NCBI GenBank assembly: GCA_963693365.1
Contig: CAVNZM010000003.1
Coordinates: forward strand, 14,863,143 to 14,927,142
Source of the DNA: Amoebidium appalachense
Taxonomy: Eukaryota; Protista; Ichthyosporea
Direction: 5' to 3'
DNA: 64,000 bases
Shown here: positions 3,204 through 56,111 of the stretch, one piece after another
How positions within the stretch are numbered: the stretch's first letter is position 1
Layout: every line of letters begins with the position of its first letter
Notes under the pieces: model-generated
Told to the model about the DNA's origin: nothing
Database searches by the model: none
The model's input: the letters and a program-made list of their open reading frames with translations, nothing else
Program-made: the position numbers and the translations under genes

Positions 3204-4478
3204 TTACAGAAAGCTGACAACACTGAATCTAGACAAGCGGTCATAGTCACGGGTGTCCGGCACCCGCTCTCTCCTCCAGCCTGTGTCATACAAGCTCCAC
3301 ACCAACCCAACCCCCCCGGGGGAATCTAGCCCAGTGGTCTCCCACCGGGCCTGCCCCGATACACCCACACACACACTGCCGTCACGGCCGCCAATAGGGG
3401 ATGGGGGAGTTTGTGGGGGCAAGGGGGATGTTGATAGACACGGTGGAGGTAGTATTGGGAACATCCCGGGGTATGCGATGAATGAGAGGGGCGGCGGTGC
3501 AGGGGCAAGTTTGCGCGGGCCGGTCCGCGGCGGTGGTGGTGGCGGCGGCGGAAGCTTTGCACACTCGTCTACGAACAATTTTACACACCCTTCTAATATG
3601 TTCGCTGCATGTTGCCGCACATACGTGTGACACACGGCACACACGAGCACGGCGGCCGGCTGTGCAAAGATGCGCGCACAGTGGCAGCACAGGCAGGCAT
3701 GGAAGCGGAGGGGGAGGGCGGCGGCGGAGCAGGCCTGGGCGACACAGGGGGATGCGGGGCGCCGTCGGTTGCTGCATACTGGGCAGTATTCCAGGGCGGG
3801 GATGTACCAGTCGGAAAGGAGGCGGCGCAGGCGCCCGGCGACCATGTCTTCAAGGAACTCCTCTGCTTTGCGGTAGTGTACACAGGCACAGGCGGGGTCA
3901 GCACAGTCGGGCACTGGGGCCGGAAAGCTGACGTGCCACAGCGCACATGTGGGGGAATGAGGGGCTATCAAGTGCGCGGGATGGAGGGGGGAGGGGAGGT
4001 CGGAGAGACACGTGCAGGAGACTGACATGCCGGCCAGCAAAGGATAGACGGCGTTCCAGGCACGCAGCCGCTGGGCGTTGACAAAGCGGTTGGTGCGGCG
4101 GACAATGCGGAAGACACAGTGGTGGTCGTCGGGGCACGAGCTACAGCAGCCGGGGAGGCCCGGGGGAGCAGGCGAATGTGCTTCCACAGTGTTGAAACAC
4201 GCAACACAGAGACGGGAAAAGTGTGTTGTCGGAAGAGTCAGGCAGTGGTCACAGCTACAGACAAAACGGGCAAAGCCCGAGGCGTTCATCTTGCGCATGC
4301 GGGCATTGGGGATGCCGCAGGTACCGCACGCTTTCGAGGGTGCATCACTGTCACGCAGCCCCATACAACGCGTGCAGTCACATTCGTCAACAGGCAGGGG
4401 ACATGGGAGGGACCGTTTTGGTTTCTTGGTTTTCATCCTGGCCTCATCTGGAGAAGAAAATGAGCGTACGAAGGCCAC
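3204..4478 (-). CDS. Intronless Cys-rich protein (~410-424 aa) with two copies of a CxxC...CxCxHC...CxxC putative Zn-binding module
   Basis: 1.27-kb open frame in non-microsatellite, GC-rich DNA. Modules are ACGTCG...VCSCDHC...LCVACF and YCPVCS...ACLCCHC...VCAVCH. First ATG at ~4436 (MKTKKPKR). Confidence 0.55.
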   Translation of the reverse strand: MAFVRSFSSPDEARMKTKKPKRSLPCPLPVDECDCTRCMGLRDSDAPSKACGTCGIPNARMRKMNASGFARFVCSCDHCLTLPTTHFSRLCVACFNTVEAHSPAPPGLPGCCSSCPDDHHCVFRIVRRTNRFVNAQRLRAWNAVYPLLAGMSVSCTCLSDLPSPLHPAHLIAPHSPTCALWHVSFPAPVPDCADPACACVHYRKAEEFLEDMVAGRLRRLLSDWYIPALEYCPVCSNRRRPASPCVAQACSAAALPLRFHACLCCHCARIFAQPAAVLVCAVCHTYVRQHAANILEGCVKLFVDECAKLPPPPPPPPRTGPRKLAPAPPPLSFIAYPGMFPILPPPCLSTSPLPPQTPPSPIGGRDGSVCVGVSGQARWETTGLDSPGGVGLVWSLYDTGWRRERVPDTRDYDRLSRFSVVSFL

Positions 4479-4770
4479 GGTTATGAAGTTGCACGATCGG
4501 CGGTTCCTTCGGAGAAAAACAAATACCGGGATAAAAAAAAAGGCCGTGTATAAACAGCCATATAACTTACAAAACTACTATACAAGGCTACGAGTGTCAG
4601 CTACCATGGCTAATAGATAGTAAGACCTTCAAGTGCCTTGCCTCTCACAAAGCATTCGACTCTTAGTAGGATCCTTTTTTTTAGCAAAATAGGCACGCTC
4701 GGGAGGTGAACTGTTTCCCCTTTGTATTTAGAGATAATCAACATGTCCAATGTATCGGTGGTATGTAAAA

Positions 4771-6594
<1,824 letters not shown>

Positions 6595-6839
6595 AGAGTG
6601 AATTCCCTTGAACCCACTACACAATGACTGGGGCATAAGCCTTCGGCATGCAGACTGCGAGCCGGGTGGGGGGCCAGGCATGGATGCATAACAAGGGGGA
6701 GCAAGGGGGTGTTGTTTGTTTGGGTAAATTTTCGGTGAACTTGAATCATCTTCTATATGCTTGATGTGTAAGGGTTTAACGGGGGTTTCTGTGTATGGTG
6801 GTATGTTATTTTTTATCCCCCTCCCCCGAAGAACAGACC

Positions 6840-6887
<48 letters not shown>

Positions 6888-7114
6888 GGAACCCCCCGTG
6901 GATTGACTCCCCGTACAATCCCCCCTCTAAAAGGCTTGGGACCTACTATCAGGTTGGTGCTCAACATAATATCAACCGTCTTCCAAAGTTGATGCCACTG
7001 CAATCCATCATCAAACAGATGGAGCTGGTGAGCGTGCATGTAAAAGGTCTGGGGGCGGTGAGGGTGGCGGCAGCCGCCACCACCAAGCCTTAGGGCCTAC
7101 CACTCGCGGCGGCC

Positions 7115-7851
7115 ATGGACGTGCTCAAACCCGCCGGCGGCGTGCATGCGCTCTCGCAGATCCGCAGGCAGACCCGGCCTCCAACGAGTTCATGAAGGCC
7201 CTGGTCACGGAGCACCCCGTGGCGCTGACCGACGCCGCGGGCGCGGCCTTCATGTGTACTTACGCCGGCCGTAACGTGGACGAGGCCGCGCTCCGGCAGC
7301 TGCTGGTGGCACTGGGCATGGGCCGGGCCACAGCCGCGCGCATGGCCCTGTGCACCAAGTCACGCGCGGCCCAGCCCACGCTGCCCGTGCCGCTGACCGG
7401 CGGGTTCGCTTGCCCGGAGGCCAGCGCGGTGGTGAGGCTGACACAGGACGGCTACGCGCTCATGTGGGACGTGGCGCACTGCAGCTGGCTGGTGGAGGGC
7501 GACGCATGGGCGGGGCGGTTGGACGACGGCCTGGACGAGCTCTGTTTCGCGGCCTATGATCGCCTGCTGGTGGCTCGCCCCGACCTGGCCCGCTCTGTGC
7601 GGTACACGCCGTGCCGGGCGGGCGACTGGGCCCGGTCCGTGCCCACCGTGCACGTCGCCAGGCTGGCCCAGGCCCTCGCCCGTGACGACGGGGCGGGCAG
7701 GTTACCTTGGGAGGCCCGCACGTCGCTGTTTGTGCGCAGGTTGGCCCCGGAGTGGGAGCGGCGGTGGCGGGGTGGCCCGACCGCCACCCTTGACGCCGGC
7801 ATGGACGAGGGTCCCCGATCGTGGCCGCCGCGGCAACGTTCAACAAGTTAA
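7115..7851 (+). pseudogene. Hypothetical virus-like protein (~245 aa) with one frameshift near 7180
   Basis: ATG 7115 (MDVLKPAGGVHALSQIRRQ) shifts into the 7192-7851 frame (NEFMKALVTEHPVALTDAAG…). Strong GC3 bias, no introns. Confidence 0.5.
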
Positions 7852-8700
7852 CGCCCGCCGGAGCCCCCCGCGCCATTCGCTCTCGCTCTGGCCCCCCCGC
7901 CTCCTCCCCCCCTGACACCCACGCCTACCCCCCTCGTCCCCTCGTGGCCGCTGCCCCCCCCCCCAGGCCCCGCCGTTGGCCATTGCCCCTCCCCGGGCCC
8001 CGCCGTTGGCCGCTGCCCCTCCCCAGGCTCCCACCAGCCTGAGGCCGGTCTCGGAACCGCCCGTGCCCGTTGCGGTTGAGGTGGAGGTTGCTCCAAGGGC
8101 TGCGGTTAGCAAAACGCAGCCCATGGAGCCGTCCACCCGTCCTCCGCCACACGTTCCCCTGGATACGTTGACCTCGGCAGGGATGGCATCGCCACAAACG
8201 GCCGCCAGAACTCCCCGGGGGTCCAATGTACGCACGCCCTGGACACGGAAGAGACATCCGACAAAGACAGCGAGCTGGGAACGCTTACCGGCAGAAACGG
8301 CTGGCACAATGCCAACGAGCCGGGAACAATGACAGCGAGCGGCTGGCACACTGGCGGCGAGCCTAGAACGATTACCGGCGGGGGCGGCTGGCAGACACCC
8401 AGAGCACGGCCGCGTGAATGGCCCCGCTGGTTGTACCCAGCACCTTTGCTCAAGTCGCTTCGAAGGCTGTACCGGCACGGCGGCCGTCCGGACAACCCGG
8501 ACAACTTGAACCCGGACAACCCCAGCGGCCGTCACGATAATAGGCTCGCGCACCACGGCCATTCCATTGGCCACAACCGGGCAGAGAGTGGGCAGCATTT
8601 AGGTGGCATGGCAGAGGACGGCCTGCATGCGGCGGTAGCGGACCTTACCAGGAGGCTGCAGAGCCTGGAGGCTCGCGTGGCGTACCTTGAACGGAAGTAA
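7821..8700 (+). pseudogene. Frameshifted Pro-rich hypothetical protein with 3x E-x-x-T-x-T-x(2-3)-G-W-[HQ] repeats and a C-terminal coiled coil
   Basis: The 8329-8700 frame is open further upstream (ELGTLTGRNGWH / EPGTMTASGWH / EPRTITGGGGWQ) and ends LHAAVADLTRRLQSLEARVAYLERK*. Upstream Pro-rich pieces lie in other frames. Confidence 0.4.
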
Positions 8701-8745
8701 ACACACAGATACTGTTGCCCGGTCAGGCCTTAACCGGAGTAATCA

Positions 8746-9578
8746 TTAAAGCGGGCTCCGCGAGTATGGGGGCTCCAATACGGGAGCGGGCGAGTAGACG
8801 GGAGCAGACGCCAGCGTAGGGGCGGGCGAGTAGACGGGCGCGGGCGCCAGCGTAGGGGCGGGCGAGTAAACGGGCGTGGGCGCAAGCGTAGGGGCGGGCG
8901 AGTAGACGGGAGCGGGCGCCAGCGTGGGGGCGGGCGAGTAGACGGGAGCGGGCGCCAGTGTAGGGGCGGGCGAGTAGACGGGCGCGGGCGCCAGCGTAGG
9001 GGCGGGCAAGTAGACGGGAGCGGGCGCCAGCGTAGGGGCGGGAGAGTAGACGGGAGCGGGCGCCAGTGTAGGGGCGGGCGAGTAGACGGGAGCGGGCGCC
9101 ACGGCAGGGGCCGGCGAGTAGATGGGAGCGGGCGCCACGGCAGGAGCGGGTGAGTAGACGGGAGCGGGCGCCACGGCAGGAGCGGGTGAGTAGATGGGAG
9201 CGGGCGCCACGGCAGGGGCCGGCGAGTAGATGGTAGCGGGCGCCACGGCAGGAGCGGGTGAGTAGACGGGCTAGGGCGCCACGCAGGGGCGGGTGAGTAG
9301 ACGGGCGCGGGCGCCACAGTAGGAGCTGGCGCTGGAGCTGGAGCTGGAGCTGGCGCTGGCGCTGGCGCTGGCGCCGGAGCCGGCGTTGGAGCTGGCGCGG
9401 GTGGCTTGGGCTTTGGCGGATTCAGTGGGCGCGCGGCGTACACGTCGTAGTTCAATCCAGAGCCGGACTTTGACCGTATCCCCATCCGCCCATGTCACCG
9501 TGGCGACGTTGCCGCCTAGCGGAGGCCTGGCGTGGCCGTAGCGCCTAATGTTGGAACTGTCCAAGACCGTGGCGATGA
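8746..9578 (-). pseudogene. 3' half of the transposon-split virus-like gene: end of a DM9-like region plus a Pro-rich extensin-like tail
   Basis: IATVLDSSNIRRYGHARPPLGGNVATVTWADGDTVK, frameshift, SGSGLNYDVYAARPLNPPKPKPPAPAP, frameshift, then (APAPVYSPAPTL/AV)n. Joins in frame to 18019 once the element and one TSD copy are removed. Confidence 0.65.
8770..9320 (-). repeat. Coding 36-bp tandem repeat (~15 copies) encoding APAPVYSPAPTL/AV
   Basis: Plus-strand unit GGCGGGCGAGTAGACGGGAGCGGGCGCCAGCGTAGG with variants. Confidence 0.9.
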
Positions 9579-10319
9579 CATCAGCAAACTTCATCCGGCA
9601 TCCGAAACCCATCTTATATATCATTTTGATATATGGCATACCAAACCCCACCCTAAATACGTCAAAAAGAGCCTGACAAGATATCATAGAATTCCCGGAT
9701 AGAACCCATCAGATCCCTATCAATGATATCTTTGATAGGGTTCGGATTGGTTATGGTATGGCGCATATCCGAAACCCATCCTTTGCTGATATCCTTACGA
9801 TATCCTTACGATATCATAGAAAACCACGATGGTTTTGGTTTTTGACCGAAAATCTCAAAATTTCCTCATAGCATTATGATATCCATATGCTATCCTAGTG
9901 ATATGTATGTTAGCAAGGTCATAATAGCTCTTTTGGATATGTTTCACATACGTTTAGGATATTGGTGCCCCAAACGATGTCTGTTAGATGTCTTTGTTAT
10001 AGCCTACAGATATCCCTCATTATAGAATATCTTAATCCCATCCAATACGCATTACATGACGATATCTACCTGATGTCGTGGGACAATACAAATTGATATC
10101 CACGTGATATCTGATGGATAACATGTATGCTTATAAATTGAATATAATACAGATGTTGTTTTGATATCGTCTGGACATCGTTGTGATGTACCTACAACCA
10201 TTTTTTTGATATCGTTATGCGCCCATGGGGGTAATCCAGAAGATACCCTTGTACACAACCAGTAGGCATGTTGAAGACATCCAGGACCTTTTGATATCCT
10301 TTCGGATATCCCTTTGTCC

Positions 10320-11043
10320 ACAGGCCCAAGATATGATATCTAATTCATATCATTGTACAGGTCGTAAGGATATGTACCAAATATATCTAAATAAAGACTT
10401 GTGATATATGTGATTGGTATGTGTAAGATGCCCCTATGTACATCAATGTGATATGCTGTAACTTATCATTTGAATATCCCGCTCTGTCTAAAACGGCAGC
10501 ATTGTGGGTATCCTTTTGATATTCTTTTTGATATCCCTTTTATATTCAATATGTTATCTGTTTTTGGTCCTACATCTCAAACATATCACAACTGCCTCTT
10601 TGCAGGCCCAAGCTACGATATCTAATTCATATCTTTGTACACGTCGTAAGGATATGTACCTGATATATCTAAATAAAGACTAGTGAGTTGTGTGATTGAT
10701 ATCGGTAAGATGTCGCTATGTACATCAATGTGATATGCTGTAACCTATCATTTGAATATCCTAATCTGTCCAGAGCAGTAGTCCACGAGGTATCATCTAC
10801 ATATCTTTTAGAGGCCCTTAGATTATCATTGCGATATCCGCATAGGGATATATTTATATATCGAATTCATAAGTATATGATACATAAGCTTGCCATCCCA
10901 GTGATATCTAAGCGGCAGTATTGTGGATATTAGAAAGATATCAGAAGAACATCCGTGCAGTAGAAGGTCAGTGTCTTTTGTAAGTACATCAATGTGATAT
11001 CTAAACGGCAGCATTGTGGATATTAGAAAGATATCAGAAGAAC
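10320..11043 (+). repeat. Subterminal direct duplications inside the transposon
   Basis: A ~160-bp block CAGGCCCAAG…TATCATTTGAATATCC occurs at ~10321 and ~10603. A ~50-bp block GTGATATCTAA…GATATCAGAAGAACA occurs at ~10901 and ~10994. Confidence 0.8.
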
Positions 11044-12169
11044 AATCGAAAAATCCTTTAGATGTCTATTAGATGTCCGATGAGAATGGTTGCGATATAC
11101 GCGCAAAGAAAATTTTTGTGATCAAGCCAGCTGAGCAATCGTTGGGAAACCCGCCAATTACTCACACGGGGCATTGCGGGGCTCATTGCGGCCATCTGAA
11201 TGTGATGGTGGCATGGCCATTTATATAGGGCCAGGAAATCACTTTTCCGTTCGATTGTGGGACGAAAATCACAAAATGGCAAACCCGATTTTGATTGGTT
11301 GTTATTCTTCAAAACGGCATAATCAGGGTCACCCAACTGTGATCAGCCAATCACGTTTCATGTTTAATTGAGATTATCGCATACATCTAATGAAGATATG
11401 TTTCTGCCATCTTTACGACATCGCAACGACCTGATCTTCTATGGTCTGATCTTGTACATATCCCACAGGGGTCATAAACATCTCATAATGATATTTGTTA
11501 GATAAACACGCAACCACAACGGCCGCAAATAAAACTAAATTACCCCATTTGGCAAGTGCCATGTGGCAGAGTGTAAATTGCGAACGTCCGAAACACTAAA
11601 CACTAGGCAAAATAGAGCAATCTAGTAACTACATAGTACCAATTTCGAGCATCGAAGCAGGAAAATGGTTATTTATTGCAATTTTATATTTTGTGTGTTC
11701 CGAGGATGTTACCACCTTTGAAGGTTTATTAGCGCCTGAAAACAATACCTTACTGCATTAGGGCGGGTGCACATCACAGGCACGTGCACATTCTCCGGAC
11801 ACCAGATGATATATCGCAAGATATCCGTACGATATCTAATGTATGTATTGTTGATATCATTCTATTCTCATGCATCGTAGTTATAATGAACGTTACCATT
11901 TTATGACTATTTATGATATAAAACGCTAGTTACGCTTGTGCTTTCTATAACCGGTAACGCACGTTAACATTATGCCTCCGCGCGCGTGAACTACAAAGTA
12001 TGTGAAAACTGCAACGTAGTGATACACACTCTTCTTCTGAACCTATGTCGTCAATCATGACACACACACACACACACACACACAGCGAGACACGCACGCT
12101 GCCACACACACACACACAAACACACACACACAGAGAGAGATACACACACACAGACAGACACGTTGCCCT

Positions 12170-12200
<31 letters not shown>

Positions 12201-12234
12201 GCCACACACACACACACACACACAGGCACGTTGC

Positions 12235-12319
<85 letters not shown>

Positions 12320-12354
12320 ACACACACGTTACCATGCGCACCTACCCCCCCCCC

Positions 12355-12385
<31 letters not shown>

Positions 12386-12454
12386 ACACACGTACATACA
12401 CACACCCAAACACATGCCCGTGTGCACGTACATCGGTAGACACGAACGCGCGAG

Positions 12455-12486
<32 letters not shown>

Positions 12487-12598
12487 GTGTTCACATAAAG
12501 ACAGGGTACACCACGGTTGCCTCGATATTCCTCTGTTCTTTATCTACACATTCTCGGCTCACTCTCCCGTTCATAAAATATCTCCTCCCTTGTAGCAC

Positions 12599-14336
12599 CT
12601 TGTAGCATAGTATATGTACATATGTTACCTAGACATTATTGGTTTTTCAATAACTACCCACAGAACAGCCTCTAGCACGAGAAATTTACCACAACGTTTA
12701 TGGGGGGGATGGTAAATGTGCCCCTGGAGTACGAGGGTCACACGAAAAAAACACAACCTTGTAGCTCGAATAGAACCCCCCTTGTAGCATAGTATAAGTA
12801 CATGTGTTACCTAGACATTATTCGTTTTTTCAATAACTACCCACAGAACAGCTTCTAGCACGAGAGCTTTACCACAAAGTTTATGGGGGGGATGGTGAAT
12901 GTGCCCCTGGAGTACGAGGGTCACACGAAAAAAACACAACGTTGTAGCTCGTATAGAACCCCCCTTGTAGCATAGTATATGTACATAGTATGTTACCTAG
13001 ACATTATTGGTTTTTTCAATAACTACCCACAGAACAGCTTCTAGCACGAGACATTTACCACAAAGTTTATGGGGGAGATGGTGAATGTGCCCCTGGAGTA
13101 CGAGGGTCACACGAAAAAAACACAATGTTGTAGCTCGAATAGACCCCCCTTGTAGCATAGTATATGTCCATGTGTTACCTAGACATTATTGGTTGTTTCA
13201 ATAACTACCCACAGAACAGCTTCTAGCACGAGACATTTACCACAACGTGTATGGGGGGGATGTTGAATGTGCCCCTGGAGTACGAGGGTCACACGAAAAA
13301 AACACAACGTTGTAGCTCGTATAGAACCCCCTTTGTAGCATAGTATATGTACATCATACGGTATGTTACCTAGACATTATTGGTTTTTTCAATAACTACC
13401 CACAGAACAGCTTCTAGCACGAGACATTTACCACAACGTGTATGGGGGGGATGTTGAATGTGCCCCTGGAGTACGAGGGTCACACGAAAAAAGCACAACG
13501 TTGTAGCTCGTATAGAACCCCCCTTGTAGCATAGTATATGTACATAGTATGTTACCTAGACATTATTGGTTTTTTCAATAACTACCCACAGAACAGCTTC
13601 TAGCACGAGAGCTTTACCACAACGTTTATGGGGGGGATGGTGAATGTGCCCCTGGAGTACGAGGGTCACACGAAAAAAACACAACGTTGTAGCTCGTATA
13701 GAACCCCCCTTGTAGCATAGTATATGTACATAGTATGTTACCTAGACATTATTGGTTTTTTCAATAACTACCCACAGAACAGCTTCTAGCACGAGACATT
13801 TACCACAAAGTTTATGGGGGAGATGGTGAATGTGCCCCTGGAGTACGAGGGTCACACGAAAAAAACACAACGTTGTAGCTCGTATAGAACCCCCCTTGTA
13901 GCATAGTATATGTACATATATATGTTACCTAGACATTATTGGTTTTTCAATAACTACCCACAGAACAGCCTCTAGGACGAGAGATTTACCACAACGTTTA
14001 TGGGGTGGATGGTGAATGTGCCCCTGGAGTACGAGGGTCACACGAAAAAAACACAACATTGTAGCTCGAATAGAACCCCCCTTGTAGCATAGCATATGTA
14101 CATGTGTTACCTAGACATTATTCGTTTTTTCAATAACTACCCACAGAACAGCTTCTAGCACGAGAACTTTACCACAAAGTTTATGGGGGGGATGGTGAAT
14201 GTGCCCCTGGAGTACGAGGGTCACACGAAAAAAACACAACGTTGTAGCTCGTATAGAACCCCCTTTGTAGCATAGTATATGTACATCATACGGTATGTTA
14301 CCTAGACATTATTGGTTTTTTCAATAACTACCCACA
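12599..14336. repeat. Tandem array of a ~182-191-bp unit (9 full copies plus 1 partial)
   Basis: Unit starts (C/T)TTGTAGCATAG at ~12599, 12781, 12964, 13149, 13332, 13523, 13709, 13895, 14081 and 14264. Copies differ only by scattered SNPs and short indels. No unique spacers. Confidence 0.95.
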
Positions 14337-15019
14337 TGCGGCATGTGTTACTTTCACGTTATTGGTTTCCTAGCACGGGATATTCAGCACACAGTTGGGG
14401 ATGTGGGGGCAGTGTACACCTCAATATTGGTAAGGTGGTGGGTGGGTTGGGGGGGGGGGGGGGGGGGGGGGGAGGGGGGGGTTCCACACAACCGAAACTG
14501 TCGGTGTTACAAGTGGTTCGGTCTTAAGAAGTTAGAACGGTGATTTTTTAATTAATAGCGGGAAACAATATTATCCCCATTGCATATGGGGGGAACGAGG
14601 AGGGGGGGAGGGGGGGGGGGGGGGGGGGGGGTTCACAACGAATTCTATCGACTGTGCATAATTAATGTATATTGCACATGTAGCCTGAAAGATTAAAGTG
14701 AATGTGTGTATGTATATGTGCGAGTATATTTGTGTATGCAATACATGTACAATGTTTTCGTCTTTGTAGGTGGGTGGGTGGGGTGGGTGGGGGGGGGGGG
14801 GGGGGGGGGGGTGCGCGGGGGGAAGAGGGAGGGGGGAGGGGGCATCATGATCAGGGATAACAGGGTGTGTGCGTGTGTGCGCTTGTGTGTGCATGTGCTG
14901 TGTGTGTTGTGTAGGTGTGCGCCTGTGTGTGTGTGCGTGCCTGTGTGTGCGCGCCTGTGTGTGTGTGTGTGTGTGTGTGTGCAGTGTGCATGTGTGAGTG
15001 TGTGTGCGTGCGCGCGTGC

Positions 15020-15050
<31 letters not shown>

Positions 15051-15399
15051 TGTGTGATTTCAAAGAAGTCGAAAGCGCCAGTGACACCCATGTTGAAAAA
15101 AAGACAAGCAAGCACGCTAAGAAGGACAGCAAGAAGTAACAGAAACCCTTTCATGCCGAAAAAATGGTCAAGAACAAAGAAGTGGAGGACACGTAACTAT
15201 AGTCTGATAGTTGTGACTAAGGGCACTAAGGGTAGCGCTAAGGGCACCAAGCTGATGCACGCGCGCGCGCGAGCCGAAATCTATTTTTATCTTTTTCCTA
15301 ATCAGGCGCGGCGAATAGTGATTGGCTAAATCCCAATCCGGTTTGCAATTTTTTTCTCCATTTAAGCCTGTACGCACGTTGTTTTCTCCATTTCTCTTC

Positions 15400-15520
15400 C
15401 CCCTTCCCGCAGGTCCGCAGGTCCTTTCCCGCAGGTCGCCTGGTCGCAGGTCCCTTCCCGCAGGTCGCCTGGTCGCAGTTCCCTTCCCGCAGCGCCTGGT
15501 CACAGATCCCCTCCGCAGAT
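15400..15520 (+). repeat. Short tandem repeats of CCCTTCCCGCAGGTCGCCTGGTCGCAGG
   Basis: 3-4 imperfect copies of ~29 bp. Confidence 0.7.
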
Positions 15521-15910
15521 CGCGCAGCCACCGTGCTGATTGTTTTGGACCATGCTGCATGCTGCAGCTTCTTCTTGAAGGTTAGTTTTGTGTTGCCTGC
15601 TTTTGTGCATATGGCGTTTGTCTGTCTGGTCTGTGTCTGTGTCTGTGTGTGTGTGTGTGTATGTGTGTGTGCGTGCGTGCGTGTGCGTGTGTCTGCTGGC
15701 TGCAGATGCACGTTGCCTTTCACGTTCATGAACCAGCGACTGTGGGCACTACTTTTGCTGTTAGCACTATAGCTATCATCCCCTCCACCGATCGTTCAAG
15801 CTATTTTCTGCTTCTCTAGACTTCATAAGTTCTGGTCCGGGTTTCCGTCCTTACTATGTTTAAGGTTGGTTCTGTCGACTCTTTTTTTGCCACTCTCAGT
15901 CAGCCCCCTC

Positions 15911-15949
<39 letters not shown>

Positions 15950-16061
15950 CCCCACTTCTCGCAAGTAGGATGAGCTAATTCTTAGCTCGAGTTCCTTTAC
16001 AGGTTTTGGCAAGGTTGCCCCATGAAGTCATCAGCAGCTATAAGGCTACGTTATCATCTAG

Positions 16062-16304
16062 AGGTGGGTACCGGCTCTTTGTCCTATGGCTGCTGTTGTT
16101 TCCGTTTTTCGTTTCATAGGTGGGTACCGGCTCTTTGTCCTGTTAAGGTAAATAAAGTATGGAGGCAAGACCCTGTGGGTCTGGTTCTTTGTCCTATGGC
16201 TGCTGTTGTTTCCGTGTTTCGTTTCTGTGTTGCTCTTATAGCACATGAATGATCATGTGCATGTTTAGCACCCATAGGTGGGTACCGGCTCTTTGTCCTG
16301 TTAA
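16062..16304 (+). repeat. Interspersed 24-bp repeat AGGTGGGTACCGGCTCTTTGTCCT (3 exact copies plus 1 partial)
   Basis: Copies at 16062, 16118 and 16276, partial at ~16183. They are followed alternately by ATGGCTGCTGTTGTTTCCG or GTTAA. Confidence 0.8.
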
Positions 16305-16543
16305 TTACTCTGCCGGCATTTGGTATGGTATGGTTTGGTGTAAGAGTGCCCCCCTTATATTGTCATGTTGGGCGTCCTTTTTTTTTTTTTTGGGCCTCAT
16401 ACCCATACACACACACCTTGTTACTCTTCTGTCAAGGGATTAGCATGTGTTTAGTTTAATGATGTTGGGAGCTTCTTAGAAACCCGCATAATAGTTTGCT
16501 TGTTTTGAGTTTTGTTTATGTTCGTTGCTGCTCTTTTATACTC

Positions 16544-16577
<34 letters not shown>

Positions 16578-18018
16578 AAAAGAGTGACTTTTCTTTTTTT
16601 TTTCTTTTTTTCTTTTTTTTTGTGTGTGTGTGTGCGAAGAGAAAAAGTAACAGAGCTTTTTATTATTTTTATTATTATTATTATTATTTTGTGTGTGTCT
16701 GTGTATTTATTTTGTGTGTTTTCGTAGTTCGAATAAATTGTGTGAAGACATGTCCCGAGGACATGTCTTTAAAAATATTTGTCTTAGAAAATATTTGAAG
16801 TGACAGACACGCCCCAGTGGGACATAACCCTACGTAAAAGATAATAGATGAGTTATAGTTGACACGTTCCAGTGGGACGTGTCTGCAGAAAATGGATCTG
16901 TAATCAGCGGCTCGACGACATATGACCACGTGACAGGCAGGTTCGAAAGGGGTGAGGGGCGGGGGGGGGCCGGTGGGGGGGGGGGGGGGGGGGGGGGGGG
17001 GGCAAAACGACATCAAACAGTGATCGGAAACGACGTCTGGATGATATCAACTTTGAAAATGGCTCAATCATATATATCAAGACATAACATAATGATATGA
17101 AAAGGATAATATAACTATATTGCGAAAATCATTCTTAATAAATCTTAATTATACCTTAAATTTATCGTTTTGATATATGTGCTGTATGTCAAAAAGATGT
17201 GACAGAGTTATGTTAACGATATGCTACTAATATCATAAGGAATGGTTAGCTGATAAACTACTATATGTTTTAACGATATGTAACAGATACTAGAAAGATG
17301 TCGTGTAGAGGACATACAGCCAGAACTTCTCATATCTTTAAAGGCTCCTAAAACTATCAAAACGATATTATTACGAAATTTCTTTTGACCCATCCTAGTT
17401 ATCTTTATGTTATGAGGCTTATATCGTTATGACATTTAACGTATGATCTTTAGATAATGTTTTCGGCATCCTATACCTATCCGTTGTATATGAAAAGGAC
17501 ATCTGTAATAGTATCTTATAGATGTATTACCATATACGAAACCTCCTATAATGACCTCGAAATGATATCATATAGATATATATGTATCTTATGATCGATT
17601 ATCATATATATCGTAAGGATATGTGATAGCTACCATAAGGATATGGGGAAGGGCTCCTAATCCGCTATTAGAGATATCTTTATTATGTCTAAAACGCTTC
17701 TGAACATCAGACTAAAAAGATTTTATGATATCAAATAGACTATCATAATGGTATCATACGGATATAACGAGGTTGTTGAATACATGGAACACAGGATAGA
17801 ACAACGATGGGTTCAGGGTGCTCCGTATGAGCCCATTATGAGATCATTTTGATATCTAGCAAAAGATACCAAAATGATATCCAGAAAACCCGTGATAGCA
17901 AAACGATGCTGTTATGTTATCTAAAAGACAAGAGGGGGATAAAGAGTGGCAAAAAGATGGGTTTATGGGTTTATGATATCTTTAATGGGTTTCGGATGCC
18001 GGATGAAGTTTGCTGATG

Positions 18019-19276
18019 GATGTAGTGGCCGTGAAAAATCTTGCCGTACGCGGGTTCCGCGCGGTCACGGGATCGATCATGGCGAACTCGTACTCGCCCT
18101 CCATCACCACAAAGGCCACATCGTCGGCCGCGCACACAGCCGGCGTAGTGCTGCCGTACGGGGCGGCGTACGTGGCCTTGCCAGTGGCTTCGTCGTACAC
18201 GCCCGGGTACCAGCGGCCCCCGCCGGCCCGGCACAGCACGGCATACGGCGCCAGTACGCTGTACCTCTGAGCCCCTGCGGGAGGGGCGCTGGCATAGACC
18301 GCCCTCCAGCCCCGTCCCCGGGGCGGCGGCGGCCTGTCCCTGACCAGGGGCGGTGCCCCCGGCGTGGTGGGAGTAAAGTCAAACAGCGTCTTTCTGTAGC
18401 CCACGTCCACGGGCGCCGAACCATGGTTGAAAACCTGGTCAGGCGTCATGTTGGACGCGGCACTGGCCACCCCAAAGCCTTCGACCGACAGAACCCCTGG
18501 CTTATCTGACAGCAACAGCGGGCGGCTGAAGCTGAACTTGGTAGTGGGGGCATCCGGAGCACTGGACACACTCCACTGGCGGACCTTGCCGTCCACGGCC
18601 GCGCTGACCGTGCCGTCGGCGTCAAAGGACAAGGCTACCAAGGCTTGTGGGGCACCCCATCTACAAGCGGGTAGTCGGTCATGGCAACACCCTCCGGTGG
18701 GAACGGCCCAACCGAATCGGCGCGCGAAACCAGCGCCTCGTCTGAGATAAACCCATGCGGCGTAAAGTACAGCAGGCGAGGGATGCCTGTGGCGTCAAGG
18801 TACACGGAGAAGCCGTCCAACGGTGAGGGGTCCTCGCCCGACAGCGGCACCATGTTGCCCATCAAGAATTGCCCTGTGGCGGCCCGCGTGGGCTCGGCAC
18901 GGAACTCGGCGGTCACGGTCAGGGGCAGCGTTTCGGACAGCACAGGCCCAGTCAGGGTGTCGGCTGACGTCTCGCTCGGGACCAACGGCGGGATATCCGG
19001 GGCCGGAGCTGGGCCAGGCGCCGGCACTGGAACCGTCGCTGGAACCGGCGGCCAAGCGGGCGCTGGAACCGGCGGCCAAACGGGCGCCGGGACCGGCGTT
19101 GCCAAGTGGGACCTCAGGCGCAGGTGCCACGCCGGGGCATTGTTGGACATTGTGTTCATAGAAGCTAGTTCTAGTGCACGTTGTTCCTTCTGTAAGTCAG
19201 AAATGATTGCATCTTGTGAGGCCAACCTCTGCTCCAGTAGTTGGACTAGTTGCTGCAACTGTAAGTTGTCAGACAT
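18019..19276 (-). pseudogene. 5' half of the transposon-split virus-like gene: coiled coil, Pro-rich linker, LamG/ConA-like domain, DM9-like region
   Basis: MSDNLQLQQLVQLLEQRLASQD… (coiled coil). LVDGVPH[fs]LVALSFDADGTVSAAVDGK resembles LamG 'DGxWHHVALTFDxxGTVxLYVDG'. VLCRAGGGRWYPGVYDEATGKATYAAPYG resembles a DM9 repeat. Frameshifts near 18645 and ~18060. Confidence 0.6.
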
Positions 19277-19880
19277 AGTGTCGTGTATGATGGGTAACTA
19301 GTCTATGTGTTTTGTGCACTGAAAACGACAGTAGAAAAGTGTAAATCAAACGTTCTGCTTCCCCTGTTTGTGACATGGGAGGCACTGCTTTATATAGTCG
19401 TTAGGCCACCTCATGGTGGCCTCGTGTGCACCCTGGTGGTGGGCCATGTACAGCATGGCCGAAAAGAGAGCACAATGAAAACAAGTCGTTAAAGATATAA
19501 AAGTTAACTGTGCACGTTGAGTGGCTAGTTAACTTGCACTAAAGCACACAAATAAACGTGTTTAACACACCAATTGCAGTTAAACGTAAATCTTACTTCA
19601 CACAACTAAAAATATTCTGAGAATATCCGGGAATAAAGCACACTAGTACCACTCTAAGAATAGAATCCTGTGGCAAATATAGACATGACATCATCTGAAC
19701 CGGGAATATTAATTAATGAGCACAATTAGCACGTTGCTAGTGAAGCTCGTCATTGGTACAGTTTTGGCTCAAACATATAACTACCATATATGAATATGAC
19801 CGTAAACAAAAGCTCTATGCACTCGAGTGAGTGTTGAAACAATTATTCAATTGCTCAGAAACTTTCTCTAACAGACATTG

Positions 19881-20168
19881 CTAGCCGGGAGTACCAGTGT
19901 ACTCCAACAGGCATGGCGTGGTCGACGGCGGTGTTCCTGGTGGCGCGGCGGGCGCTGGGCCTGGGCCGGCCTGAGGGCGCTGACGCTTCCATATGGCCGC
20001 GGACACCGCCGCAATCAGCACAATCACGCCCACCACAACGGCTACAATCACAGCCGGGTTCTTGGCCAGTTTGGCAACCGGCTCGCGACTGCCACCGGAC
20101 GTCACGGTGCTCATGGACCAGGGCGACGTCGTGCTACCCGACGATGACCACGGGGACGTATACGACAT
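19881..20168 (-). CDS. Small single-pass membrane protein (95 aa), virus-like
   Basis: Hydrophobic helix PAVIVAVVVGVIVLIAAVSAAIW followed by KRQR and a Pro-rich tail. GC-rich and intronless. Confidence 0.6.
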   Translation of the reverse strand: MSYTSPWSSSGSTTSPWSMSTVTSGGSREPVAKLAKNPAVIVAVVVGVIVLIAAVSAAIWKRQRPQAGPGPAPAAPPGTPPSTTPCLLEYTGTPG

Positions 20169-20227
20169 GACCGCTCTTTACCTGAGCTTCCGCAAAAAAA
20201 AAAAACACAGTGCAGGAACATTGAAAT

Positions 20228-21135
20228 CTAGGCCTTGGGAATTGGGAGTGTCTGTGCGGTCAAATCCCTCATGAGCTCTTCGAGCTCGCGCTCCCGGTAC
20301 TCGGTGCGCGCGGCCTGCGCCTGTCCGGGGAACACCCAGCGGTACATGTCCACCACGCACACGTCCAGGAGCGTCACAAATGGCCCCACGGCCTCCTTGG
20401 CATACCGTCCGGCCTCCTCCTCCGTAGCAAACACCCCAAGCGGTACTACCAGCGGGTGTCCCTGCCCGGGTTGCGCCACGGCCACCACGGCGTATGCCTG
20501 CTGGTCCACCGGGGCCGCCGCCTCCATCACATCGCCGGCGTGCTCCGATTCATTGTCCATGTTTGGACACGTCTGGCCCGGGTTCTCGCCGTTCACGCCG
20601 CCATTCAACCGCGCCAACCCGTCCACGCGCGCGGCGTCCTCAGGCTGCGCGGCTGCCGCAGCGGCTTGGCCGTTGCCTTTGCCTTTGGCGGCTTCGGCCG
20701 TCTCCGCCTTGGCAGCTTCGACCTTTGCCCCAAACGCCTCCCGTGCCTCCCGCAGCCCCGCCGCGTAATCCGCCAGGCACACCCTCAAGGCGGCGGCTTG
20801 GTTCTCCACAAGTCCCGGGGTCAACACATCCCGGTGGGGTGCAGCAGCAGGTCATGCACCGAGGGGGCTTGGGCGGCCACGTGCCGCATGGCGGCGGCGC
20901 GGTCCGTGAAGGCGCCCAGGATCCGGAACGCCGCCAGGCCGCTCCGTGGGCGCCGTGCCGTACCGGCCACGTTCATCAGCACACACGCCTGCGAGGGTGG
21001 CAACAGGGTGGCACAGGCCCGGATCTCCTCCTCGAGGGCCTGGACTGGTGTCACGGCGGCGGCCGGGGCGGTCAACGTTGACGGGGCGGACATTGCGGAT
21101 CGGCTGGTCACGGACATTGCGGACATTGTTGACAT
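20228..21135 (-). pseudogene. DUF5832-like NCLDV protein with two internal repeats, frameshifted at ~20825
   Basis: Repeat 1: QACVLMNVAGTARRPRSGLAAFRILGAFTDRAAAMRHV. Repeat 2: QAYAVVAVAQPGQGHPLVVPLGVFATEEEAGRYAK…DVCVVDMYRWVFP…TEYRERELEELM. Both match my recollection of the giant-virus family pattern Q.(F/Y)A....G(I/V)F.T.EEA..(H/Y)A...D..V..M..W....EY....L..LM. A TTTTATAATT A/T-rich box lies at the start. Confidence 0.6.
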
Positions 21136-21223
21136 GGCTGGCCATAATTATAAAAGGCAGGTGGGCGCCGCTCCTTTTCTCACTGCGATGGACCCCCGGC
21201 CGACGCGGCATTGGCGTTGACTT

Positions 21224-21363
21224 AACATCTCGGTGCGGCAGCAGCCCGGTTGACCGAAGCACAAAAACAATCTTGTCACCATCCCAAACATCAGTGGTGA
21301 CTGAACATCTTGGTGCGGCGGCAGCCCGGTTGACCGAAGCACGAAAAACAATCTTGTCACCAT
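21224..21363 (+). repeat. ~60-bp direct duplication (80-bp period) in the divergent intergenic region
   Basis: AACATCT(C/T)GGTGCGGC(A/G)GCAGCCCGGTTGACCGAAGCAC…AAAAACAATCTTGTCACCAT at 21224 and 21304. Confidence 0.85.
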
Positions 21364-21548
21364 TCAAATGGTAAGGACAACTTAAGGTACTCAGGATTGG
21401 GAGGACCGGGTAACCGGTCAGGGGATGTTTATCATCCCTAAACTCAACACACTGCGACACGGCTACAACTGAGGGGGACCGGGCCGCCGGTACATCCACC
21501 GGCGCAGGCACTGCCGGCACTGCCGGCACTGCCGCTCCGCGTGGCCCC

Positions 21549-21929
21549 ATGCTTCCCTGGTCATCCCGCGTGGCCAGGCTGGTGGCCGCCACCCTGGTGG
21601 AGATGGCCCAGGACCGCGGCGCCGTGGAGGTGTCCCCCGGGGACCACGTGGGCTGGGCCCAGGCCGTGGACGCCTACGGGGCCCCGTTCATCCAGGCTCG
21701 CGGGCCCGGCGACCCGCCAAGCTGGCGTATGGGGGTCTACCTGGTCACGCGCGTGGACACGGCCGCCGCCCGCGCCGCGGTCGCCCGCGCCAACGACTCC
21801 CCCGGCCTCAACGTGCTGCTGGTCGGAGCCCACCCACACACGTCGTTTGCCGCCAAGGAGCTGCAGGCCACGCCCGCCGTGGAGCGGCTGTCGTTGGCAT
21901 CTCTAAGACTTTTTGAACCTTTTTTATAA
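21549..21929 (+). pseudogene. RPB5: RNA polymerase subunit RPB5-like, N-terminal (jaw) domain only; C-terminal assembly domain absent
   Basis: RVARLVAATLVEMAQDRG resembles RPB5 RLWRIRKTIMQLCHDRG. VLLVGAHPHTSFAAKELQATPAVERLSLASL resembles ALIVVQQGMTPSAKQSL…ILEQFLQQEL. Intronless and very GC-rich. The sequence switches to AT-rich/microsatellite DNA exactly where the C-terminal domain should begin. Confidence 0.55.
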
Positions 21930-21976
21930 ATTTTCTTTTTTCATTTCTCGCGCGTGCGCGCGGGGGGCCGGAGGGG

Positions 21977-22020
<44 letters not shown>

Positions 22021-28779: not shown

Positions 28780-30220
28780 CATGTGTGCGTGGGTTCGTGC
28801 GTGCGTGCGTCCGTGTGCGCGTGTGTGCTTGCGTGCGTCTGTAAGTATTTGTGTGTGTGTAGTATGTTCGTGTGGGAGGGTGCCACCATCTTAGCTCTGT
28901 TGGTCGCTGACAGGGGTAATTTGTTCTCACACTTTCTACACTGCTTGTAATGCACACCGTTTCTCTCTCCCGGTGTGTCTGTTGTGCATTCACATGCATG
29001 CATGTACCTGCACTTATATGGAATAAATCGATTGTGGTTTGATGTATGTTGGTATGCCGAGAGGCCCTGTACATGTGTGTGTGTGTTTTTTTTTTTTTTT
29101 TTTTTTTTTTTTTGGGGGGGGGGGGGGGGGGAGGCATATAGATTCTGTTGTGCTGGCATTCGGCTAAATGATTCTATCCCACAGTTTCTGATGGAAATCC
29201 TCAAACTGGTTTTGCGCAAAAAGATCATCCAGTCCAACCCATCTTTCGAAGCCAACGAGATTCTCTTTCTGCGAATTGCAATCAACCACGCCCAGCAACA
29301 AACGGAAACTTCAAACACACCGGAGAACCCTCCAGAAAAACTGCATAGGCCGGAGTCTGTGTCAGACAACAGCAGCTACGATCCGTTGCTTATTTGCGAT
29401 GAGGTGCTACCGAACTATTTTTGGACCAAAACGGTCGAAAAAGCCCATGTTCTCATCTCGAACGGCATCCACCTCCCATTGCTTCCCCTCACGTTTGTTC
29501 GCTTCTTTCTTGCAGACAGTTTTGTGAACGCACAGGAGATTGATTTGTTTCGGTGGGCAGCGAAGTGGGCCAAAGCCGCAAACACTCCGTTTGGGAAAGT
29601 AGCCGAAAGCATTTGGTACCCTTTAACGACGTCAGAGGAACACTACGAGGTTGAAAAGTCGGATTTGGTCGACCCGAAATTGCTTCTTTGCGCCCATCGT
29701 GTCAGAGAGGGAGGACGGCTGGGGGGAGACAACGAAATGTTCCATGCCCCCCCCCTATGGTTCACACCCCGCATGTGCCACGCTTTCAGATTCAAGGTGC
29801 CCGCTGATTTTTTCGAAAACCGCCAGAACTTGTGGGACCAGACAGGATATATTAAGATCGGCGGCAACATGTGGGAAATTGAAATAATCAAGTCATTTGT
29901 TGGAGATAATTTTCGCTGTAAATTCGGTTTGAGTTTGCTACCTTATCGTAAGATGTGCCCACATCACATTGAACACTGTATGCAGATGGGATCGACTTTG
30001 GCGTGTTTGTTTCAGGACAAAACAGCGAGTGTTCATTAGCAACACAAAACTGGACCAGTGGCATACACGTTACTGGGAAACACATTCAGGTTTGAAGGGG
30101 ATGAAATTTGAGAAGGAATGCAGTGCGGAGGAAATGCGTGCCTGGATGGATGATAGGGGGACCATAACCTTCAGCTTTGGTATAGTTGTGCGGATGCTGA
30201 ACTGCGAACGGATTAAGTAG
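26528..30220 (+). pseudogene. BTB-BACK-MATH-like protein, paralog 1 (two frameshifts)
   Basis: Exons 26528-26673, 28253-28435 and 29185-30220 with GT-AG junctions. Relative to paralog 2 there is a 1-nt loss in DFN-VHRVI (exon 1) and a 2-nt loss at DKT-ERV (~30023). BACK motif EIDLFRWAAKW…IWYPL. Confidence 0.75.
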
Positions 30221-32847: not shown

Positions 32848-34285
32848 TCACTGTGCTTGATTACGCTCATCTAAAAAAAGAAGCCTTGATGATGGTTGTA
32901 TATATCTTAAGTTGCATTCCGTAACCCGAGCAACCATGCCCACACTCAAGGTTATGTTACCACTACCATCAACCCAATCTTGCAGCTCCTCAGTGCCGAA
33001 CCGGTGTTTGCAAGACATGCCTGCCTTGGGTGTAGAAGGACCCCAGAACCGAGTTGCCCAAGTCTTATCTTCCAATTTGCTAATATACACCCGCTCGGTT
33101 TTGTCCGGTGACAGGTACCCGACAGTCACAACCAACCGCACACTGTGTTCTTTGTGATGGACGCAAGCAGAAGCTCCCGGAACCAGACTCAAAGCAAAAC
33201 GGAAGCACAGTTTTCCGTCATTCAACACCTTGTCAAGATGTAATTTCCATTTCAGGGTGCACATCTCAAATACATCTGACTGGAACTTTTCTTCTCTGCC
33301 ATTTTCAAAGACGTCATCGGGCAACTCAAGGCTCACCGTTTTGCACATGCGGGGAGTCATCCACTGAGAGGGGCCATGGTACATGCCTTCCTGCCGCAGC
33401 CCCACCTCTCTGACACGATGGACACAGAGAAGCATTTTCGGGTCGACCAAATCCGACTCTTCAACTTCGTAGAGTTCCTCTAACGTCATTAATGGGTACC
33501 GAATGCTTTCAGCAATGTCCCCAAACGGAGTGTTTGTGGCTTTGGCCCATTTTGCCGCGCACCGAAACAAATCAATCTCCTGTGCGTTCACAAAACTGTC
33601 TGCGAGAAAGAAGCGAATAAATGCGAGGGGAAGAAGTGGGAGGTGGCTGTCGTTCAAGATGAGAACATGCGCCCTTTCGACCGTTTTGTTCCAAAAATAG
33701 TTTGGTAGCACATCATCACATATCAGCAACGGATCGTACATACTGTTGCCTGCCGGGGTTTCCACCCTCTGACGTTTTTCTGGCGGGTTCTCCGGTGCGT
33801 ATGAAACTTCCCTTTGGTGCTGGGCGTGGTTGATTGCAATTCGCAGAAAGAGAATCTCGTTGGCTTCGAAGGATGGGTTGGACCGGATGATTTTTAGGCG
33901 TAGACGCAGTTTGAGGCTTTCCATCAAAAACTGGGGAACCCAAATGCTTAGATATCACCCTTCATATGTCCCCCTCCCCCCCCTCCCCCCCCCCCCCCCC
34001 CCCCCCCCCCCCAGCACACATGCATACATCCAACCAACCCTATCCTCCCTCCCCAGCACACAGGTACCACACACTGCACCCTACCATCCCCCACCTCTCC
34101 GACTCCACAGAACATACACACGCTTCCAACAACCACCGTTTTCACTTCTATGTACACACACGAACATAACATGTGTCCTTTATCACATACAAGGAAACTG
34201 GGCTCCCCTGTGAAACTTGCTCCTGACAAGCACCGACAGACTGAACTCGTTTGTAATAATAGAACCTCCCGGGCGCAAATGCCAC

Positions 34286-37372: not shown

Positions 37373-37387
37373 AGCTAGAACCCACCC

Positions 37388-38459: not shown

Positions 38460-38461
38460 GC

Positions 38462-42137: not shown

Positions 42138-46993
<4,856 letters not shown>

Positions 46994-52534: not shown

Positions 52535-53001
52535 TTAAAGTGCGGCAGTTGCATGTGCCTGCGGTGCCACATTAACATTCATATGCAGAACATTCAGCGG
52601 GTCATATTTGGCCTTAATCTCCGCCAGCCTCTGCCCATGCGACCCGAAATACATTTCGAGCCGGGCCGTCTGACCCGTGGACTCTGGTGCCCGGCCCAGA
52701 AACTCCATGTCGTCGCATGCAGGCAGTATGCCGTATGTCTCCTTGCTGAAGGCTTCCATAGTCGTGCACACAGTGCGTGCCCACGTGACGATAGACTCCC
52801 TGTGCGTGTGGGCCAGCATTTTAAGTTTTATGATCACTTTTGATTTATTAAACAATTTGGTTTATATTGTAGGCAAAGTGACTGTTATTGGAAATTGACA
52901 CATTATAGAATCCCCTGTCCCCTAAACTGAGTAACTACATTGCAGGTTATTTGTTTGCAGGCTCTCCTGTCTTTAGGGTCCCCCCCCCCCCCCCCCCCCT
53001 C

Positions 53002-53038
<37 letters not shown>

Positions 53039-53745: not shown

Positions 53746-53793
<48 letters not shown>

Positions 53794-54844: not shown

Positions 54845-54929
<85 letters not shown>

Positions 54930-56064: not shown

Positions 56065-56111
<47 letters not shown>

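What the first reader, a model, noticed from the sequence alone, without database searches (positions are those of the whole stretch)
7040..21929. Decayed endogenous giant-virus fragment embedded in a eukaryotic chromosome
Seen: ~6.5 kb (after removing the transposon) of GC-rich, gene-dense, intronless DNA, sharply unlike the flanking host DNA, with at least six small frameshifts. The 3-kb LINE ORF2, the oxidase and BTB paralog 2 are clean, which argues for real decay over assembly error. Established: NCLDVs encode RNA polymerase subunits including RPB5, and giant endogenous viral elements are known in several protists and algae. Inference: this is a remnant of an RNA-polymerase-encoding, high-GC NCLDV, possibly of an undescribed lineage.
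Basis: partly seen in the sequence, partly recalled or inferred. Interest (0 to 1): 0.82.

Follow-up and report, generated by a model that had tools for sequence, protein, structure and literature searches.

The report
Decaying giant-virus relic in eukaryote chromosome
About 5.7 kb of GC-rich DNA, broken by frameshifts and split by two transposon-like inserts, carries a gene whose relatives of known context lie in giant-virus genomes and is likely a dead scrap of such a virus lodged in a eukaryotic chromosome, a kind of relic already described in several protists.

Summary
Mostly confirmed. Net of inserts, ~5.7 kb (6902/7040-21900) is GC 0.68, GC3 0.73-0.92 and nearly microsatellite-free, against host GC 0.52-0.55, GC3 0.39-0.60. 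The best viral evidence is a frameshifted two-domain DUF5832-like gene (21135-20228): relatives sit in giant-virus contigs beside a major capsid protein, RPB2 and capping enzyme. The RPB5 call is only likely: N-terminal domain alone, weak fold and profile support, C-terminal domain missing at the right edge. Three other genes have no relatives. Short-read contigs of two studies reproduce five of the breaks, but differ by 4 letters in 7735-8780, so three breaks there are unreliable. Neither outer junction is bridged; one contig bridges a junction with a high-copy host transposon. A converted-base run suggests dense CpG methylation over the RPB5-like gene. No capsid, polymerase or packaging gene is in the window. 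Lineage could not be placed and the host was not identified. Verdict: new member of a known kind (eroded giant endogenous viral element); interest 0.35.

The parts
6902..7093 (+). Left stub: unique DNA with a short open frame, continuous with gene A; viral or host origin unresolved, so the left boundary lies between ~6886 and ~7100
   Evidence: Same contig and depth as gene A in X1 and X2; GC3 0.65; no significant family hit
7115..8700 (+). Gene(s) A-B-C: a ~215-codon globular part (7163-7810), a Pro-rich part and a C-terminal part ending in a coiled-coil-like stretch; several frame switches; no known relative (weak D5_N/DUF927 lead only)
   Evidence: GC3 0.90 in the main frame; frame caller; no homologs; atlas lead 0.89-0.90 with low feature overlap; model pLDDT 42, no fold match
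8746..9578 (-). Gene D, 3' part: ends in ~15 copies of a 36-bp repeat reading PVYSPAPAVAPA
9579..18018 (.). 8440-bp non-autonomous terminal-inverted-repeat element (CATC...GATG ends, 46-bp TIR, 2-bp target duplication GA, GATAT-rich subterminal arms, 186-bp x 9.4 array inside), inserted in gene D; no transposase found
   Evidence: right arm about 50-200 times the depth of the unique DNA in X1/X2 and a copy with another flank
18021..19140 (-). Gene D, middle part (Pro-rich linker, then a likely beta-rich extracellular region), frame switches near 19000-19100 and 18650
   Evidence: identical, gap-free contigs in X1, X2 and X9; no relatives
19141..19909 (.).
   Evidence: about 1000-fold depth and many different flanks at both ends
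19910..20168 (-). Gene D, 5' part: Ser/Thr-rich start, one predicted transmembrane helix, Pro-rich linker
   Evidence: sequence; only non-specific hits to membrane-anchor models
20228..21135 (-). Gene E: two-domain DUF5832-like nucleocytovirus protein, split by a frameshift near 20830-20850
   Evidence: Pfam DUF5832 E 5.5e-5, 23.8 bits, under the 26.7 cut-off; 13 relatives; relatives' profile hits the upstream frame at 44 bits, E 1e-12; relatives in giant-virus contigs; reads identical across the break
21209..21424 (.). 216-bp intergenic element between the divergent genes E and F, with an internal 66-bp direct repeat; present in a few further copies elsewhere, some in tandem
   Evidence: depth 4-5 times its neighbours, loose ends, a joint that goes back 216
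21549..21929 (+). Gene F: likely RPB5 N-terminal (jaw) domain, cut off at ~21900 where codon usage turns AT-rich; the RPB5 C-terminal domain is absent
   Evidence: GC3 0.92; fold searches; alignment and shuffles; codons at the end

Best explanation
This is likely a dead, roughly 5.7-kb remnant (four or five genes) of a high-GC nucleocytovirus genome, likely integrated in a eukaryotic chromosome, with frameshifts and two transposon-like inserts inside it. Shown: foreign composition, a DUF5832-like gene with giant-virus relatives, a homology-proven frameshift, two inserts with target-site duplications inside one gene, and the same sequence in runs of different studies. Inferred: the DNA was captured by illegitimate end-joining during a failed infection, or is what deletion left of a larger insertion (gene F is cut at the right edge; no integrase, terminal repeat or target duplication marks the outer ends); the host silenced it by CpG methylation; it then decayed without selection. 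It would make no virus: no capsid, DNA polymerase or packaging gene lies in the window. It is probably young, since CpG is not depleted and no in-frame stop was needed in the called frames.
For: Composition and GC3 contrast. Gene E: DUF5832 hit; 9 of 13 relatives carry DUF5832 at E<=0.01, 5 over the cut-off; 4 loci from the viral collection, 2 labelled giant-virus MAGs, one with a Capsid_NCLDV gene next door, another with RPB2 and a capping enzyme; none among 373 candidate stretches from prokaryote genomes. Gene F model matches RPB5 chains repeatedly. Inserts are high-copy repeats with target duplications; the frames called independently on the two sides of the LTR-like insert are in register; one X9 contig bridges the TIR junction with 34 letters on the element side. 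Identical contigs in X1 and X2, runs of two studies. A contig of converted-base run X11 over gene F has 14 changed letters, equal to its 14 non-CpG G, with 20 CpG G left. No hallmark gene in the window.
Against: Only one gene has a significant viral link, at 27-39% identity and E>=1e-5; its Pfam score is under the cut-off. RPB5 support is weak: no Pfam, PDB-sequence or hhalign hit, profile E 8.9, best fold matches are PD-(D/E)XK nucleases at Z 6.5 or less. Genes A-C and D have no relatives. Neither outer junction is bridged, both end at long C or G runs; the other contigs reach only 27-30 letters into the inserts, under the tool's 31-letter rule. The methylation reading is biased by the 85% likeness filter, and near 18030-18090 four non-GCG CpG sites were converted. 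No assembly was held, so sister fragments could not be sought.
Confidence: 0.82

Rival explanations
1. The block is part of another integrated mobile DNA (polinton/adintovirus-like element, Plavaka-type giant repeat, mirusvirus) that carries genes taken from nucleocytoviruses.
For: Such intron-poor, methylated giant repeats exist beside GEVEs in one holozoan protist (PMC11244446 section 7); only one gene is firmly linked to nucleocytoviruses; gene A has a weak D5_N/DUF927 lead of a kind also found in smaller elements.
Against: No integrase, recombinase, protein-primed polymerase or capsid hit in 132 screened frames; all 4 contextualised relatives of gene E are in large-virus contigs; an RPB5-like gene would not be expected in polintons (recalled).
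Confidence: 0.08
2. The genes are cellular: lineage-specific host genes or a bacterial transfer, with gene F a derived host RPB5 copy or a dead nuclease.
For: Three of five genes are orphans; gene F's fold is shared by restriction-type nucleases and cellular RPB5; most gene E relatives have no known context.
Against: No prokaryote-genome relative of gene E; no NCBIfam or PHROG hit; host genes in the window have GC3 0.5-0.6 and the oxidase is split into exons; a recent host RPB5 copy should hit Pfam RPB5 models, which it does not.
Confidence: 0.05
3. A co-sequenced free virus or contaminant was joined into the host contig by the assembler at homopolymer runs.
For: Both outer ends meet long C/G runs and no short-read contig crosses them; depth of the blocks is somewhat above the one host flank measured (X1 109-191 against 45; X2 32-41 against 26).
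Against: The genes are frameshifted in reads of two studies and carry host high-copy repeats with target duplications, which a replicating virus would not; one contig bridges the TIR junction.
Confidence: 0.05

Closest known systems
Giant endogenous viral elements (GEVEs) of Amoebidium appalachense (PMC11244446; abstract, sections 6, 7, 10 and passages read)
   Same: Intron-poor gene-dense viral DNA in a TE-rich chromosome, of varied length, never with a full core-gene set, with secondary TE insertions and CpG hypermethylation outside CGC/GCG contexts; the few converted-base sites seen here follow the same pattern (all CpG kept over gene F; outside it 2 of 2 GCG-context sites kept and 5 other CpG converted).
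   Different: Those were defined by VLTF3, A32, D5 or MCP and placed near Mamonoviridae; this piece has none of them and could not be placed. Whether the host is related was not established.
Eroded GEVEs of Euglena gracilis (PMC12455990; start of abstract and four passages read)
   Same: Genomic erosion with transposon invasion, judged unable to reactivate.
   Different: Those are large, keep full-length marker genes and fall in Asfuvirales; this is a 5.7-kb frameshifted scrap.
DUF5832 (PF19150)-like two-domain proteins of uncultured giant viruses (L001-L004, P0001-P0013)
   Same: Two copies of the 'G.F...eeA' domain, W.FP and 'eYR..eL..lM' motifs in the same order.
   Different: 27-39% identity only; broken by a frameshift; neighbours differ (Nudix hydrolase upstream in L001/L002, none here).
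RPB5 of nucleocytoviruses (ASFV chain 8q3b_E; giant-virus bin G001 RPB5; clandestinovirus, which encodes RPB1, RPB2 and a divergent RPB5, PMC8383183 passages)
   Same: Predicted helix-helix-strand-strand-helix-strand order, 'EM..DRG' motif in the first helix, colinear alignment over the N-domain.
   Different: No C-terminal Rpb5_C domain; sequence scores are not significant on their own.

Membership tests
Giant endogenous viral element (Nucleocytoviricota) | Genes whose closest relatives are nucleocytovirus genes | tested here: met
   Gene E relatives in giant-virus contigs with MCP, RPB2, capping enzyme; met for 1 gene, weakly for a second, 3 orphans
Giant endogenous viral element (Nucleocytoviricota) | Core marker genes (MCP, PolB, A32, VLTF3, D5, RPB1/2) in the element | tested here: not met
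   No Pfam hit among 132 of 966 frames screened for length and complexity; no tblastn hit with MCP, RPB2, capping enzyme, partial ATPase. It is therefore filed as a remnant, not a classifiable GEVE
Giant endogenous viral element (Nucleocytoviricota) | Intron-poor, gene-dense DNA of composition unlike the host | tested here: met
Giant endogenous viral element (Nucleocytoviricota) | Physical continuity with host chromosome at both ends | tested here: inconclusive
   Outer junctions not bridged; one contig bridges the internal junction with a high-copy host element
Giant endogenous viral element (Nucleocytoviricota) | Silenced: methylated, not transcribed | tested here: inconclusive
   One converted-base contig over gene F keeps all 20 CpG, with filter bias; expression not testable with contigs
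Giant endogenous viral element (Nucleocytoviricota) | Phylogenetic placement inside a nucleocytovirus order | tested here: inconclusive
   Tree of 16 gene E rows: 2 of 13 inner branches supported, window row in no supported group
DUF5832 (PF19150) | Score over the Pfam gathering cut-off | tested here: not met
   23.8 against 26.7 bits for the C-terminal piece alone; hence 'DUF5832-like'
DUF5832 (PF19150) | Two-domain layout shared with family members | tested here: met
   Upstream frame 44 bits, E 1e-12 against a profile of 15 relatives found without it; next frame 8.7 bits
RPB5 (RNA polymerase subunit 5) | N-terminal jaw domain with restriction-endonuclease-like fold | tested here: inconclusive
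   Model pLDDT 50; RPB5 chains at Z 4.8-5.5 and Foldseek E>=0.12; profile 3.5 bits, 1 of 2000 shuffles as high
RPB5 (RNA polymerase subunit 5) | C-terminal Rpb5_C domain (H...P.H ... DP..RY.G) | tested here: not met
   ORF stops at 21929; full-length profile finds nothing in 966 frames
Solo LTR | TG...CA ends, 4-6-bp target duplication, high copy, no internal repeat | tested here: met
   the parent retroelement was not seen
CACTA/CMC-like TIR transposon | Short TIR, 2-3-bp target duplication, repeated subterminal motifs, transposase | tested here: inconclusive
   TIR, 2-bp duplication and motif-rich arms present; no transposase; the superfamily label is recalled, not tested

The most novel reading that the evidence does not exclude
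The block samples an uncultured, very high-GC, RNA-polymerase-encoding nucleocytovirus lineage with no close relative among 1.8 billion protein representatives, and the 216-bp element between genes E and F is a viral intergenic repeat that tags further scattered pieces of the same virus in this host, from which its markers and lineage could be read.
Probability: 0.3. Interest if true: 0.55.

Novelty: new member of a known kind. Interest (0 to 1): 0.35.

Why it matters
It is one more record of giant-virus DNA entering a eukaryotic germ line, and a compact example of the late stage of that process: marker genes gone, remaining genes frameshifted, host repeats nested inside, probably methylated. 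Such scraps escape marker-based scans, so they show how much viral ancestry is under-counted, and they record a virus-host pair. It suggests no new mechanism.

Tried and rejected
No whole genome was held, so sister fragments and markers elsewhere could not be sought. Word-index protein searches found nothing for gene E's C part and gene A; single-protein scans of viral contigs found nothing for E, F, A and D pieces. The one metagenome hit for gene D (L022) is a wrong-strand match over a bacterial regulator-like gene and was rejected. P0010 among the 13 relatives is a coiled-coil artefact. Atlas look-ups gave low or lead-only scores. Gene A's model was too poor to use. hhalign and local BLOSUM alignment of gene F with viral RPB5 gave nothing. 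PHROGs, NCBIfam and Rfam gave nothing specific. None of 10 window proteins is in the 15-billion collection by exact match. The idea that many frameshifts without stop codons is anomalous was rejected: 0.4-2.2 stops expected, chance of none 0.12-0.68. My first reading that the 4-letter read discrepancy pins one break to the C11 run was withdrawn: the rows were not shown. The PF19150 control search rang nowhere, so it shows nothing. No RNA holder was listed; the RNA-like run X20 gave no cover of genes A-C, which is no evidence. The sigma-70 scan is irrelevant here. Paper searches: DUF5832 in 0 papers; the two MAG names in 0 papers and not in the supplements of PMC13289167; giant virus plus solo LTR in 0 papers; RPB5/DUF5832 not in the 2 supplement files held for PMC11244446, whose coordinate tables I could not see and which may bear on whether this locus is already catalogued. 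Three look-ups of earlier findings returned nothing.
Full report
Observation. The window is eukaryotic: intron-split genes, LINEs, 11-14% simple repeats and 63 long C/G runs. Between 6902 and 21900 lie three blocks that differ sharply from it: 5788 bp in all, GC 0.68, CpG o/e 0.96, 0.4% simple repeats, GC3 0.73-0.92 against 0.39-0.60 in host genes and LINE ORFs. They are separated by two inserts. The first (9579-18018) has 46-bp terminal inverted repeats, a 2-bp target duplication, GATAT-rich arms (28-49 per kb against 2) and no transposase.

Genes. Codon-position analysis gives: A-B-C on the plus strand (7115-8700); a long minus-strand gene D (20168 to 8746) with an N-terminal transmembrane helix, Pro-rich linkers and a terminal 36-bp repeat, interrupted by both inserts; gene E (21135-20228, minus); and gene F (21549 to ~21900, plus), divergent from E. 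That D is one gene is inferred: the frames called separately on the two sides of the LTR-like insert are in register, while at the TIR element this holds only if a further break near 18070, which the caller did not find, is assumed.

Are the breaks real? The frame caller found 7 stable switches and 2 weaker regions, and none in the two host controls. Of 21 public runs listed, 8 hold half or more of the sampled words. Contigs of X1 and X2, from two studies (one may be the window's own source), match 17989/18042-19169, 19883-21238 and 21339-21942 without a substitution and with one gap, in an intergenic poly-A; X2 and X9 match the 7160 region without a gap. So five breaks are in the DNA. Only the break in gene E is proven by homology.

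Gene E is the firm viral link. Its C-terminal piece scores 23.8 bits on DUF5832 (cut-off 26.7). An exhaustive search of 1.84 billion representatives gave 13 hits at E<=0.001, none at 1e-10, 27-39% identical; 9 of 13 carry DUF5832 at E<=0.01 and one is a coiled-coil artefact. They are unnamed. Two sub-alignments retrieved 4 loci from the viral collection: two giant-virus MAG contigs, one with a Capsid_NCLDV gene 450 bp downstream, and two with RPB2, an mRNA capping enzyme and a partial ATPase nearby ('A32-like' for the last is my reading). One of the sub-alignments found no relative in prokaryote genomes (0 of 373 candidates). A profile of 15 relatives, all found through the C-terminal piece, hits the separate upstream frame at 44 bits (E 1e-12; next of 966 frames 8.7 bits), proving the two-domain gene and its frameshift. 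The tree does not place the window's row (2 of 13 branches supported).

Gene F is likely an RPB5 N-terminal domain. Against: no Pfam, PDB-sequence or hhalign hit; a profile of 16 viral RPB5 N-domains gives E 8.9. For: a single-sequence model (pLDDT 50) has the restriction-endonuclease-like fold, and RPB5 chains recur among weak matches in all three libraries (5 of the top 50 viral rows named subunit 5; ASFV chain Z 5.5 and plant chain Z 5.3 behind nucleases at Z up to 6.5; Pol V, human and yeast chains E in the PDB Foldseek list, 15-21% identity; none significant). The EM..DRG motif sits in the first helix, global alignments to three viral RPB5 beat all but 15-35 of 2000 shuffles, and 1 of 2000 shuffles reached the profile score. 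The C-terminal domain is missing, and codons turn AT-rich at ~21900, so the gene is probably cut by the right edge. I put RPB5 at about 70%. Genes A-C and D have no detectable relatives.

Integration and silencing. No contig crosses the poly-C at 6841-6885 or the poly-G at 21962-22019 into host DNA. Run X11 shows C>T/G>A changes typical of a converted-base library (inferred). Its contig over 21736-21856 has 14 changed letters, the number of non-CpG G there, while 20 CpG G appear kept; outside gene F, 2 GCG-context CpG were not listed as converted and 5 other CpG were. This fits methylation of gene F, but the likeness filter hides unmethylated copies and the sample is small.

Mechanism. Most likely a piece of a high-GC nucleocytovirus genome was joined into the chromosome without an integrase, or was trimmed from a larger insertion, then silenced and left to decay (all inferred). 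No capsid, polymerase or packaging gene is in the window, so it would be inert. Undepleted CpG and the absence of stops in the called frames, which is within expectation, suggest a young relic.

Comparison. Eroded, TE-invaded, methylated GEVEs lacking full marker sets are described in Amoebidium (PMC11244446; abstract, sections 6, 7, 10, passages) and Euglena (PMC12455990; passages), and methylation of viral-origin genes in other protists (PMC12344493; abstract). Clandestinovirus and furtivovirus encode RNA polymerase subunits (PMC8383183, PMC13289167; passages), so an RPB5 would not by itself point to a new lineage. The host was not identified by any search; if it is a species whose insertions are already catalogued, this locus may be known. 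Verdict: new member of a known kind, confidence 0.82, interest 0.35; the bolder reading (an unsampled lineage traceable through the 216-bp repeat) has probability 0.3.

Noticed in passing
window 3204-4574 (-): Intronless 456-codon Cys-rich open frame, GC 0.62, GC3 0.67, no family hit in Pfam, PHROGs or NCBIfam; 2.3 kb left of the viral block, origin unknown.
   Followed up: partly
window 6140-6800: Multi-copy host repeat (about 10-40 times the unique depth, many variants and other flanks) directly left of the poly-C run at 6841-6885.
   Followed up: partly
window 21209-21424: Intergenic element with further copies elsewhere, some tandem, one next to other GC-rich DNA in run X9; may mark sister viral fragments.
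   Followed up: partly
window 19141-19276 (-): The solo-LTR-like insert holds a short coiled-coil-like open frame that runs on into gene D, giving a chimeric 213-codon ORF (19276-18635).
   Followed up: no
window 12598-14336: 186-bp unit repeated 9.4 times (93% alike) inside the TIR element; 24 substitution variants to 5 gap intervals among 9 units.
   Followed up: partly
window 28951-30039 (+), 32848-33954 (-), 45518-46993 (+): Three BACK-like/BTB paralog exons; the first two form an inverted duplication (553 bp at 85%, plus a 393-bp upstream exon pair 28212-28604/34306-34698).
   Followed up: no
window 37379-41530 (+) and 59466-61418 (-): An apparently intact LINE (ORF1 256 aa, ORF2 1051 aa with endonuclease and RT) and a second RT-bearing LINE piece.
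   Followed up: partly
window 52535-57445 (-): Intron-containing FAD-binding/BBE oxidase gene, similar to EncM-type flavin oxidases.
   Followed up: partly
whole window: 63 runs of 20 or more C or G in 64 kb and 11-14% simple repeats, so homopolymers at both ends of the viral block are not special.
   Followed up: yes
L001:9109-10777, L002:8502-12829: In two giant-virus MAG contigs a similar ~310-aa ORF (NUDIX hit in L001) lies directly upstream of the DUF5832-like gene; in L002 the major capsid gene follows it.
   Followed up: no
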